Shown in pieces: positions 29,001-32,000 of a stretch of 64,000 nucleotides of DNA. Location of the stretch: NCBI RefSeq assembly GCF_041248615.1, contig NZ_CP158426.1. One strand, written 5' to 3'. The stretch is from Escherichia coli. Lineage in GTDB: Bacteria > Pseudomonadota > Gammaproteobacteria > Enterobacterales > Enterobacteriaceae. Within the stretch, counting starts at the first letter, position 1; each line of letters opens with the position of its first letter. The position numbers were made by a program.

Positions 29001-32000
29001 ACAGCGTGCTATGTGCGGGCTATCAGGCGTTTTATTCTTACTCCGCACCGCATATGCGGGTGATGCGTGATCTGATAAAGCAGCATCGTTCTCCCATGGA
29101 GCTGATGACGATGCTGCGGTGATGTGCGCTTAAACGGGCTGCCCCTGATGCGACATCCGCGTCGCCAGCGGTAGCCAGCACAGCACGATCAACAATCCCA
29201 TTAAGGTCATCAACAACCCCAGGCTGCCCTGACCGGTTTGCGGCAACATCGCTGATAGCGACGCCAGCACGCCGGAACCAATGTTTTGTAGACCGCCGAC
29301 CAGCGCGCCAGCCGTGCCCGCCAGGAAGGGGAACGGCTCCATCGCGCCGCTGGTCGCCAGCGGAAACAGCATCCCGGCACCGAAAAAGAACAGCGCGGCG
29401 GGAACGAGCAGCGTCCAGACATTCATCACGCCAAACCAGTCGGGGATCCACATCAGTAAGCCAGCCAGCAGGCAGCAGATAACCGACTGCCACATCAACG
29501 TTGAGAAGCGTTTATTAGGACGTCCGGCAAACCATGCCCCAAAAAATGCCGCCGGAATCGGCAGAATAAACAAAATACTGACCGTCATACTGCTCAGCCC
29601 TAACACCGCGCCCATCAGCACGCCGGAGCAGGCTTCAAAGGCGGCAATCCCGGCCAGACCGCCAATCAGCATCAGCAAATAACAGTTAAAACCGCTGTTA
29701 CCGAAAAGCGTTTTATAACTGGTAAGCAGGCGCGTGCGCGGTGCGTCGACCGGACGCGTTTCCGGCATCCAGCGGGCCATACTGAAGGTCACACCGGCAC
29801 AAAGTACCAACAAAAAGAGATAACAGGCGCGCCAGTTCCACATCGTATCCAGCAGACCACCGATTAGCGGTGCGAGCAACGGACTGACAAGAATCCCCAT
29901 GTTTAACAAGCTGTTAGCGTGGCGCAACTGTGTCCGTTCATATAAATCACGCGGCAAAGTACGCGCCATTACACCGCCAACGCCGGTGCCCATGCCCTGC
30001 ATCGCGCTGGCGGCAATCAATACCGTCAAACTGGAGGTCGTGACCGCGACCAGCGTTGCCAGCATAAAAATGGACATTCCGACGAGGATCACCGGTCGGC
30101 GGCCCACGCGGTCGGAAATCGGGCCATAAAACAGCTGCGAGACACCGTAAGTCAGCAGATAAGCGCCCATTACGCTCTGCACCGCCCCTTCACGGACGTT
30201 AAGATCGCGCGCCATATCGGCAATAGCTGGAATATAAATGGTTTGCGCCATCTGACCGACGGCCACGAGTAATACCAACATCAATAACAAATTGACGTTT
30301 CTATGCCTTTTCATTATCACGGATGCTTTTATAAAAATAATTAGAATAAGTCACTACGCATTCCCATAAATGCGGGAGAGGAATCTATCACATTGATAAA
30401 TGTTAGCCAGATATACGCCAGGAATGGGGAATTGTTTAGCGGCAGAATATGTAAACAAAAGCGGCAATAAATGTTGCCGGGAGGGATGGTAGGGCGGATA
30501 AGATGCATCAGCATTGCATCCGACACCAACCCACACGCTAAATATAAAAGGGGAGCGGGTAACCGCTCCCCTTTGGTGCGACTTGAATCTGAATTACTTC
30601 AGGTATTTCAGAACAGCATCAAGCAGTTGCAGTGCTGCAACAATGAGTTTGAGGATAAGAATGGCGATATCCACCAGGCTCATACGCGTCTCCTGTGGTT
30701 CAGGAGCACTGCCAGCTGACGTACCTTTCCGCTGCCTGTTGCCAGCTGTTGTGCACGCGGTATCTCAAGGAGAAACGTTGTGCTTGTTGACATAACACAG
30801 TGTGCTCACGCGGGGTTAAGGCGCTGACGGCACCACCCGTTTCAGCCAGGACTTAGTGCGCCGGGTAACGATGCGGCCCCCGCATAACACATTGCGTACA
30901 GTGATATTATAGAAGTTTACTGTATAAATAAACAGTAATATTTGGACAAAACGCAAACTGTGATCGATACTCAACTATGCACTAAATACGTCAAAATTCG
31001 TGCCGAAATTGCGCGTTTTGCGCGGAACACGTATACTTTCTGTGTTGACATAATACAGTGTGCTTTGCGGTTACCAGCCGCGGGCGGCTGACGAAACCTC
31101 GCTCCGGCGGGGTTTTTTGTTACCTGCAGTACAGTACAAAACGTGATCAACCCCTCAATTTTCCCTTGCTGAAAAATTTTCCATTGTCTCCCCTGTAAAG
31201 CTGTGCTTGTATAAATATTGTTAAACACAAAACCAACAAGGTCCCCAATGACTACTTCCATGCTCAACGCAAAACTACTACCAACTGCGCCATCCGCCGC
31301 AGTGGTCGTCGTGCGTGTGGTGGTGGTCGTCGGCAATGCGCCGTAGGGACTGGAACAACACACGATTCCAAAACCCCGCCGGCGCAAACCGGGCGGGGTT
31401 TTTCGTTTAATCACCTCCCGGAAAGTCGGCCCAGAAGAAAAGGACTGGAGCATGGCAAGTTCGGGCACAACATCGACGCATAAGCGCTTTACCGGCGCAG
31501 AATTTATCGTTCATTTCCTGGAACAGCAGGGCATTAAGATTGTGACGGGCATTCCGGGCGGTTCTATCCTCCCTGTTTACGACGCCTTAAGCCAAAGCAC
31601 GCAAATCCGCCATATTCTGGCTCGCCATGAACAGGGCGCGGGGTTTATCGCTCAGGGAATGGCGCGCACCGACGGTAAACCGGCGGTCTGTATGGCCTGT
31701 AGCGGACCGGGGGCGACTAACCTGGTGACCGCCATTGCCGATGCGCGGCTGGACTCCATCCCGCTGATTTGCATCACTGGTCAGGTACCCGCCTCAATGA
31801 TCGGCACCGACGCCTTCCAGGAAGTGGACACCTACGGCATCTCTATCCCCATCACCAAACACAACTATCTGGTCAGACATATCGAAGAACTCCCGCAGGT
31901 CATGAGCGATGCCTTCCGTATTGCGCAATCAGGCCGCCCTGGCCCGGTGTGGATAGACATTCCTAAGGATGTGCAAACGGCCGTTTTTGAGATTGAAGCA

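What the first reader, a model, noticed from the sequence alone, without database searches (positions are those of the whole stretch)
30786..31117. tisB/istR-1 type I toxin-antitoxin recognisable from a 21-nt direct repeat transcribed in opposite directions
A 29-aa TisB ORF is present on the minus strand (residue 2 is Ser where I recall Asn in K-12). The segment gttgacataacacagtgtgct (30786-30806, about 100 nt upstream of tisB within the tisAB transcript) recurs 20/21 identical at 31043-31063 on the same DNA strand, inside a roughly 75-nt unit ending at a terminator. Divergent transcription makes the two RNAs complementary, which is the IstR-1 antisense mechanism. A canonical LexA box lies between them.
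Basis: partly seen in the sequence, partly recalled or inferred. Interest (0 to 1): 0.35.

Follow-up and report, generated by a model that had tools for sequence, protein, structure and literature searches.

The report
Known E. coli tisB/istR-1 toxin-antitoxin locus

Summary
No such match is expected by chance. The left copy lies in the leader of the minus-strand tisAB mRNA, 103 nt upstream of the TisB start codon. The right copy is the 5' end of the plus-strand small RNA IstR-1, which matches Rfam istR at 145 bits against a cutoff of 45. The two RNAs can form a 21-bp duplex (-33.5 kcal/mol); the single DNA difference gives a G·U pair. A perfect LexA box (30918-30937) lies between the divergent promoters. 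The region is 99% identical to E. coli K-12, where IstR-1, IstR-2 and tisB are annotated at the matching positions, with the same neighbours (emrD, ivbL-ilvB). In 25 further loci from six enterobacterial genera both copies persist, and two positions change in both copies together. Ser at TisB residue 2 is the published majority allele; K-12's Asn is the minority. The mechanism is taken from the literature: IstR-1 blocks a ribosome standby site and RNase III cleaves the duplex. Verdict: interpretation supported, already known, low interest.

The parts
30547..30574 (-). Intrinsic terminator of the tisAB transcript: a 12-bp perfect hairpin followed by a T run.
   Evidence: (inverted repeat I1).
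30594..30683 (-). tisB coding sequence: a 29-aa hydrophobic toxin, Ser2 allele.
   Evidence: ORF; Pfam PF13939; NCBIfam TisB equivalogs above cutoff; annotated as tisB in an identical RefSeq record.
30680..30793 (-). tisA ORF (37 aa), whose AUG lies inside the IstR-1 target. It is not conserved as an ORF outside Escherichia.
   Evidence: ORF; the ORF is absent, frameshifted or of different length in the Citrobacter, Leclercia, Enterobacter, Raoultella and Salmonella loci. No Pfam or NCBIfam hit.
30785..30806 (-). IstR-1 target, which is the published ribosome standby site, in the tisAB 5' leader. This is the left copy of the repeat. It corresponds to about +94 to +115 if +1 is 30899.
   Evidence: Across 24 distinct sequences from six genera, 98% of cells match the window. 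Function from PMC6690012 and PMC4147584.
30819..30850 (-). The most conserved stretch of the leader, essentially invariant across genera. It probably corresponds to the 5' structure element of the standby site in the +42 mRNA.
   Evidence: the best-conserved 21-nt windows start at 30819-30830. It is predicted to be a hairpin. The assignment to the published element (PMC6690012) is an inference.
30859..30899 (-). The first ~41 nt of the primary tisAB transcript. This inhibitory 5' segment is removed to give the active +42 mRNA and is predicted to pair with part of the target region.
   Evidence: The +1 position is inferred from the -10 box. The pairing is from the MFE fold. Function from PMC6690012 and PMC5668327.
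30906..30911 (-). tisAB promoter -10 hexamer, TATAAT on the minus strand.
   Evidence: Read from the sequence. The same hexamer is listed for tisAB in PMC11264685, Table 1. 96% conserved across genera.
30918..30937 (.). LexA box TACTGTATAAATAAACAGTA, shared by the divergent tisAB and istR-2 promoters.
   Evidence: the only perfect site in the window. 93% conserved across genera. LexA control from PMC4147584 and PMC11264685.
30943..30971 (+). istR-2 promoter: TGGACA, a 17-nt spacer, then GATACT.
   Evidence: The same hexamers are listed in PMC11264685, Table 1.
30979..31118 (+). IstR-2 (140 nt), the SOS-induced long form that shares its 3' end with IstR-1.
   Evidence: K-12 RefSeq annotation mapped through the alignment. 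Rfam istR covers 30989-31118.
31032..31037 (+). istR-1 promoter -10 hexamer, TATACT.
   Evidence: Read from the sequence. Invariant across 24 distinct sequences. Listed in PMC11264685, Table 1.
31044..31118 (+). IstR-1 antitoxin small RNA, about 75 nt. The K-12 RefSeq annotation maps its 5' end to 31046.
   Evidence: The fold shows a free 5' tail, one stem-loop and the terminator hairpin.
31043..31064 (+). Antisense segment at the 5' end of IstR-1; the right copy of the repeat.
   Evidence: 21-bp duplex of -33.5 kcal/mol. The first 12 nt are predicted unpaired in IstR-1 (0.94-1.0) but mostly paired in IstR-2.
31094..31118 (+). Shared intrinsic terminator of IstR-1 and IstR-2.
   Evidence: (Rfam structure line).

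Best explanation
The region is the chromosomal tisB/istR-1 type I toxin-antitoxin locus of Escherichia coli, in its usual place between emrD and ivbL-ilvB.

Shown here from sequence:
- DNA damage would lift repression at the single LexA box (30918-30937). That allows leftward transcription of tisAB, which encodes the 29-aa membrane toxin TisB at 30594-30683.
- A separate promoter (-10 at 31032-31037) drives the ~75-nt small RNA IstR-1 rightward.
- The first ~21 nt of IstR-1 are a same-strand copy of leader positions 30786-30806. Because the two are transcribed in opposite directions, IstR-1 is complementary to the tisAB leader about 100 nt upstream of the tisB start codon.

Taken from published K-12 work, not tested here:
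- That leader stretch is the ribosome standby site of the processed, active +42 mRNA.
- IstR-1 pairing blocks 30S/S1 loading there.
- RNase III cuts the duplex to give the inert +106 mRNA, so toxin is made only when SOS-induced mRNA exceeds the IstR-1 pool.
- IstR-1 is made constitutively.
For: - Repeat: 21/22 identity, with no chance matches in 100 shuffles.
- Small RNA: Rfam istR matches over the full model at 145 bits against a cutoff of 45.
- Toxin: NCBIfam TisB equivalogs at 69.9 and 61.5 bits, both above cutoff, plus Pfam TisB_toxin.
- Reference genome: 99% identity to K-12 across 600 nt. Annotated IstR-1, IstR-2 and tisB map onto the predicted features, and the neighbours emrD, ysdE, ivbL and ilvB are the same.
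- Pairing: the core duplex is 21 consecutive pairs at -33.5 kcal/mol, including one G·U. The IstR-1 5' tail is predicted single-stranded, while the same bases in IstR-2 are mostly paired.
- Comparison across genera: 25 loci from Escherichia, Citrobacter, Leclercia, Salmonella, Enterobacter and Raoultella keep both copies 247-258 nt apart. All seven loci tested have a divergent istR hit above the gathering score.
- Co-variation: position 7 is A in both copies in 14 loci and G in both in 8. Position 16 is C in both copies in 1 locus. Fourteen of the 19 one-sided differences are C-to-T on the istR side, which still gives G·U.
- Conservation: both copies are better conserved than the sequence immediately flanking them (0.98 and 0.93 against 0.63-0.77), although the leader 5' of the target is also highly conserved (0.90).
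- Mechanism: PMC4147584, PMC6690012, PMC5668327 and PMC11264685.
Against: Nothing contradicts this reading. The limits are as follows.
- No transcript data exist for this strain, so both transcription starts are inferred from promoter hexamers and K-12 annotation. RefSeq places the IstR-1 5' end at 31046, two bases inside the repeat.
- Thermodynamic folding shows only a modest difference in target accessibility between the +1 and +42 mRNAs (mean unpaired probability 0.39 against 0.47). The published structural switch is therefore not cleanly reproduced in silico.
- Five cells in the cross-genus table are true mismatches. The main case is C·A at duplex position 7 in three Citrobacter loci.
- Matching changes in both copies could come from gene conversion between the repeats rather than from selection on pairing.
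- The loci counted are not independent evolutionary events.
Confidence: 0.97

Rival explanations
1. The 22-nt repeat is a chance match or a functionless remnant of a local duplication, and the two copies do not interact as RNAs.
For: There is no significant similarity beyond the 22 nt. A long duplicated unit is therefore not visible, which is compatible with an isolated short match.
Against: - No matches are expected by chance.
- Both copies are kept across six genera while the sequence immediately flanking them diverges.
- Changes occur in both copies together at two positions, and one-sided changes are mostly compatible with G·U pairing.
- Published experiments show IstR-1 binding at this site (PMC6690012).
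Confidence: 0.01
2. The long SOS-induced form IstR-2, not IstR-1, is the acting antitoxin, since it contains the same 21 nt.
For: IstR-2 (30979-31118) includes the whole antisense segment and is driven from the LexA-controlled divergent promoter.
Against: - In the predicted IstR-2 fold, most of the antisense bases are paired: unpaired probability is 0.54 or lower at 18 of the 21 positions and 0.82-0.89 at three. In IstR-1 the first 12 are free at 0.94-1.0.
Confidence: 0.02
3. The two copies are DNA sites for one DNA-binding protein or for RNA polymerase (each contains TTGACA, the -35 consensus) rather than an RNA pairing module.
For: Both copies carry a perfect TTGACA hexamer.
Against: - The promoter scan reported no promoter that uses either TTGACA as its -35 element.
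- One-sided substitutions are asymmetric: C-to-T on the istR side only, which keeps G·U pairing. That pattern fits RNA pairing, not a shared DNA motif.
- The literature shows RNA-RNA binding and RNase III cleavage.
Confidence: 0.01

Closest known systems
tisB/istR-1 of E. coli K-12 MG1655 (b4618/b4616)
   Same: Same genomic position, gene order and orientation. The region is 99% identical over 600 nt. The target copy, the IstR-1 antisense copy (including the C/T difference that gives a G·U pair), the LexA box and the promoter hexamers are all identical.
   Different: TisB has Ser2 instead of Asn2, and Ser2 is the majority allele (PMC11264685). Four base differences fall in or next to istR. One is in the loop of the IstR-2-specific hairpin. 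One is 2 nt upstream of the IstR-1 5' end. Two are in the IstR-1 stem-loop, where each converts a U-A pair into U·G.
Other divergently encoded type I systems with limited complementarity in the toxin 5' UTR: dinQ/agrB, shoB/ohsC, zorO/orzO
   Same: [quoted passage not shown] A short stretch of antisense complementarity lies far upstream of the toxin ribosome-binding site. The toxin mRNA needs 5' processing to become active (PMC5668327, PMC4147584).
   Different: The toxins and small RNAs are unrelated in sequence. According to PMC5668327, dinQ does not use ribosome standby. Only tisB and dinQ are LexA-controlled.
hok/sok-type overlapping (cis-antisense) type I systems
   Same: A small hydrophobic membrane toxin is silenced by an antisense RNA, with RNase III cleavage of the duplex.
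   Different: In hok/sok the antitoxin is transcribed from the opposite strand of the same DNA and is fully complementary. Here the two genes are 258 nt apart, and complementarity comes from a 22-nt direct repeat.

Membership tests
tisB/istR-1 type I toxin-antitoxin system | A 29-aa hydrophobic TisB peptide matching the curated TisB models. | tested here: met
   NCBIfam NF011340 scores 69.9 bits (cutoff 53) and TIGR04459 scores 61.5 bits (cutoff 38), both over residues 1-29. Pfam PF13939 scores 37.6 bits (cutoff 25).
tisB/istR-1 type I toxin-antitoxin system | An IstR small-RNA gene matching the Rfam istR covariance model. | tested here: met
   RF01400 matches at 30989-31118 on the plus strand with 145 bits (gathering score 45), model positions 1-130 of 130.
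tisB/istR-1 type I toxin-antitoxin system | Divergent, non-overlapping toxin and antitoxin genes with a LexA box between them. | tested here: met
   tisB is on the minus strand and istR on the plus strand. A perfect LexA box lies at 30918-30937, between the two -10 elements.
tisB/istR-1 type I toxin-antitoxin system | About 21 nt of complementarity between the IstR-1 5' end and the tisAB leader, roughly 100 nt upstream of the tisB start. | tested here: met
   21 consecutive pairs (20 Watson-Crick and 1 G·U) at -33.5 kcal/mol, with the target 103 nt upstream of the AUG. The pairing is kept in 25 loci from six genera.
tisB/istR-1 type I toxin-antitoxin system | Conserved chromosomal context: emrD-tisB-istR-ivbL-ilvB. 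| tested here: met
   Annotation of an identical RefSeq record and of K-12.
tisB/istR-1 type I toxin-antitoxin system | IstR-1 is expressed, blocks standby ribosome loading and triggers RNase III cleavage; TisB is toxic. | not testable with these tools
   Known for K-12 (PMC6690012, PMC4147584). Toxicity of the N2S allele is shown in PMC11264685. There are no transcript or functional data for this strain.
Overlapping cis-antisense type I systems (hok/sok type) | The antitoxin is transcribed from the opposite strand of the toxin gene itself. | tested here: not met
   The two complementary segments are 258 nt apart on the same DNA strand, and the transcripts do not overlap.

The most novel reading that the evidence does not exclude
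The most novel reading left open concerns evolution, not mechanism.

The two 22-nt copies may be kept matched by gene conversion between the direct repeats, in addition to selection on RNA pairing. One-sided drift would then be tolerated almost only as C-to-T on the antitoxin side, which gives G·U. In some Citrobacter lineages a C·A mismatch at duplex position 7 might weaken antitoxin control.

The locus also extends to Leclercia, Enterobacter and Raoultella. In Leclercia and many Citrobacter loci the distance from target to AUG is about 34 nt shorter. Leclercia, Enterobacter, Raoultella and several Citrobacter loci have no tisA ORF.
Probability: 0.15. Interest if true: 0.2.

Novelty: already known. 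Interest (0 to 1): 0.07.

Why it matters
tisB/istR-1 is the model system for ribosome standby control and for SOS-induced antibiotic persistence in E. coli. Finding it here only confirms that this strain carries the standard locus with the common TisB Ser2 allele. The cross-genus table gives a small independent confirmation that RNA complementarity, rather than the surrounding sequence, is what is conserved. Nothing here opens a new question.

Tried and rejected
1. Full-length duplex prediction. IstR-1 against the tisAB mRNA gave a 70-nt "duplex" of -78 kcal/mol. Shuffled IstR-1 gave -56.7 +/- 4.4, with a minimum of -75.9. The DNA beyond the 22-nt core shows no significant similarity. The extended duplex is therefore an artefact of G+C-rich sequence and of ignoring intramolecular structure, and I dropped the idea that the leader is a degenerate copy of the whole istR-1 gene.

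2. A third partial copy. CATAACACATTG at 30883-30894 (family D1) lies in the first ~17 nt of the inferred primary transcript. In the MFE fold of the +1 mRNA, the first ~20 nt, which contain this copy, pair with +85 to +105, covering part of the target. This fits the published inhibitory 5' structure, so it is not a new element.

3. In silico accessibility of the target. The +1 and +42 mRNAs differ only slightly (0.39 against 0.47), so this is inconclusive as an independent test of the published switch.

4. Weak Rfam hits in the region. Termite-leu, STnc310, P6, RsmY and RRE all score below their gathering scores and fall on terminator hairpins. I treated them as chance.

5. L004, L006 and L020. 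In L004 the stored DNA ends before istR. L006 also has a short upstream stretch. Both were left out of the conservation alignment. L020 is a 243-base Bacillus-labelled contig that is too short to analyse.

Full report
**What is in the sequence**

A near-copy, gttgacataatacagtgtgct, lies at 31044-31064, one base to the right of the stated 31043-31063. The repeat finder extends the pair by one T to 22 nt: 30785-30806 against 31043-31064, 21/22 identical.

A search of the whole 64-kb window on both strands, allowing three mismatches, finds only these two sites. One hundred dinucleotide-preserving shuffles gave none. Beyond the 22 nt the flanks are no more alike than shuffled sequence (score 16 against 13.2 +/- 2.1). 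The repeat is a short, isolated module rather than part of a longer duplication.

**Coding content and neighbours**

- The minus strand has a 29-aa ORF at 30594-30683, MSLVDIAILILKLIVAALQLLDAVLKYLK, followed by a 12-bp perfect terminator hairpin at 30547-30574.
- The ORF passes both NCBIfam TisB equivalog models (69.9 bits against 53; 61.5 against 38) and Pfam TisB_toxin.
- A 37-aa tisA ORF (30680-30793, minus strand) starts inside the left repeat copy and matches no family.
- Flanking genes are emrD and ysdE on the left, and ivbL (31248-31346) and ilvB (31452 onward) on the right.

**The small RNA**

Rfam istR (RF01400) matches 30989-31118 on the plus strand over the full model, at 145 bits against a gathering score of 45. 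It is also the best of only four Rfam hits in the whole window.

The 711-nt region is 100% identical to three complete E. coli chromosomes. For NZ_OW967178.1 the coordinates are the same as the window's.

Aligned to K-12 MG1655, the region is 99% identical. The RefSeq K-12 features map onto the window as follows:

| K-12 feature | K-12 coordinates | Window coordinates |
|---|---|---|
| IstR-1 | 3853118-3853190 | 31046-31118 |
| IstR-2 | 3853118-3853257 | 30979-31118 |
| tisB | 3853553-3853642 | 30594-30683 |

The right repeat copy is therefore the extreme 5' end of IstR-1.

**Promoters and the LexA box**

- The scan finds TGGACA-17-GATACT at 30943-30971 on the plus strand, correctly placed for IstR-2.
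- TATACT at 31032-31037 precedes the IstR-1 5' end.
- TATAAT on the minus strand at 30911-30906 fits a tisAB start near 30899. This start is inferred.
- These are the same hexamers that PMC11264685 lists for the K-12 locus.
- TACTGTATAAATAAACAGTA at 30918-30937 is the only perfect TACTG-N10-CAGTA site in the window.

**Pairing**

tisAB is read from the minus strand and IstR-1 from the plus strand. The same-strand repeat therefore makes the two RNAs complementary.

- The core duplex is 21 consecutive pairs at -33.5 kcal/mol.
- The single DNA difference (C in the leader copy, T in the istR copy) gives a G·U pair. K-12 has the same difference.
- In the predicted IstR-1 fold, the first 12 nt are free (unpaired probability 0.94-1.0). 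In IstR-2 most of the antisense bases are paired. This agrees with the statement in PMC11264685 that IstR-2 does not repress tisB.
- With +1 at 30899, the target spans about +94 to +115. That range brackets the published RNase III product +106 (PMC6690012).

**Related loci**

A degenerate DNA pattern for the TisB residues AALQLLDAVLK was scanned against one genome per species. It returned 26 loci, 25 of them usable, from Escherichia, Citrobacter, Leclercia, Salmonella, Enterobacter and Raoultella.

- All usable loci encode Ser or Gly at residue 2.
- Every locus with enough upstream DNA carries both repeat copies, 247-258 nt apart.
- All seven loci tested have a divergent istR hit of 92-126 bits.

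Variation across the 21 duplex positions:

| Position | Leader copy / istR copy | Loci | Effect on pairing |
|---|---|---|---|
| 7 | A / A | 14 | Watson-Crick |
| 7 | G / G | 8 | Watson-Crick (changed in both copies) |
| 7 | G / A | 3 | C·A mismatch |
| 16 | C / C | 1 | Watson-Crick (changed in both copies) |
| 11 and 20 | C / T | 14 cells | G·U |
| 19 and 21 | one-sided | 1 each | mismatch |

In total, 14 of the 19 one-sided differences keep a G·U pair and 5 cells are true mismatches.

Conservation: the two copies are identical to the window in 98% and 93% of cells. The stretches immediately flanking them score 0.63-0.77, although the leader 5' of the target is itself highly conserved (0.90). 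The most conserved stretch of the whole locus is 30819-30850 in the leader. It probably corresponds to the 5' structure element of the standby site described in PMC6690012.

Caveats: the loci are not independent evolutionary events. Matching changes in both copies could also arise by gene conversion between the repeats.

**Mechanism**

The sequence and comparative data show the parts, their arrangement and the conserved complementarity. How they act comes from published K-12 work:

- LexA represses tisAB.
- The primary +1 mRNA is inert, and 5' processing yields the active +42 mRNA with an exposed standby site.
- IstR-1 pairs across that site and excludes 30S/S1.
- RNase III cleavage yields the inert +106 mRNA.
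- TisB depolarises the inner membrane and promotes persisters.

Sources are PMC4147584, PMC6690012, PMC5668327 and PMC2826370.

**The Ser2 residue**

PMC11264685 reports Ser2 as the consensus (85%) and shows that the N2S form is toxic. Here, 3287 of the 4358 genomes that carry the segment are identical to the window over the 71 nt spanning this codon. K-12's Asn is the minority form.

**Verdict**

The feature is already known, and interest is low.

Noticed in passing
window 30680-30793 (-); loci L003-L028: The tisA ORF starts with an AUG inside the IstR-1 target. It is kept as a 37-aa ORF only in most of the Escherichia loci. It is 46 aa long and runs into tisB in many Citrobacter. It has a different frame or length in E. 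coli E69 and Salmonella diarizonae. It is absent in Leclercia, Enterobacter, Raoultella and several Citrobacter. This suggests tisA may not be a conserved coding gene.
   Followed up: partly
loci L003, L005-L008, L011-L016, L019, L026, L028: In Leclercia and many Citrobacter loci the IstR-1 target lies about 68 nt upstream of the tisB AUG, against about 102 nt in Escherichia and Salmonella. The standby-site-to-RBS distance therefore varies by about 34 nt between genera.
   Followed up: no
loci L010, L018, L025 (Citrobacter spp.): The leader copy has G where the istR copy has A at duplex position 7. This gives a C·A mismatch inside the otherwise perfect IstR-1/tisAB duplex.
   Followed up: no
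window 30819-30850 (-): This is the most conserved stretch of the whole locus, essentially invariant across the 24 distinct sequences and more conserved than the tisB coding sequence. It probably corresponds to the 5' structure element of the standby site.
   Followed up: partly
window 31065-31091 (+): Two of the base differences from K-12 fall in the IstR-1 stem-loop. Each turns a U-A pair into U·G, so the predicted stem is preserved.
   Followed up: partly
E. coli complete genomes: About 20% of complete E. coli genomes lack the tisB segment (4358 of 5426 have it), although nearly all match some part of the 711-nt query. A few genomes carry up to four matching places.
   Followed up: no
window 511-591 (-): Rfam AsdA, the antisense RNA of the dnaA mRNA, matches at 101.9 bits against a gathering score of 52. 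This fits the window starting at the dnaA end of the chromosome.
   Followed up: no
window 16240-16312 (+): Rfam ROSE_2 RNA thermometer matches at 100.4 bits against a gathering score of 65. It is presumably the ibpA 5' UTR.
   Followed up: no
window 6068-6110 (-): Rfam ES036 (CssrF) small RNA matches at 47.4 bits against a gathering score of 37.6.
   Followed up: no
window 31248-31400 (+): The ivbL leader peptide (MTTSMLNAKLLPTAPSAAVVVVRVVVVVGNAP, rich in Val and Leu) is followed by a terminator-like hairpin near 31372-31400. This is the classical ilvBN attenuator.
   Followed up: no
window 30396-30470 (+) and 30478-30530: The small protein gene ysdE is annotated between emrD and tisB. Next to it is a REP-like palindromic element (gcggataag...gcatccg).
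   Followed up: no
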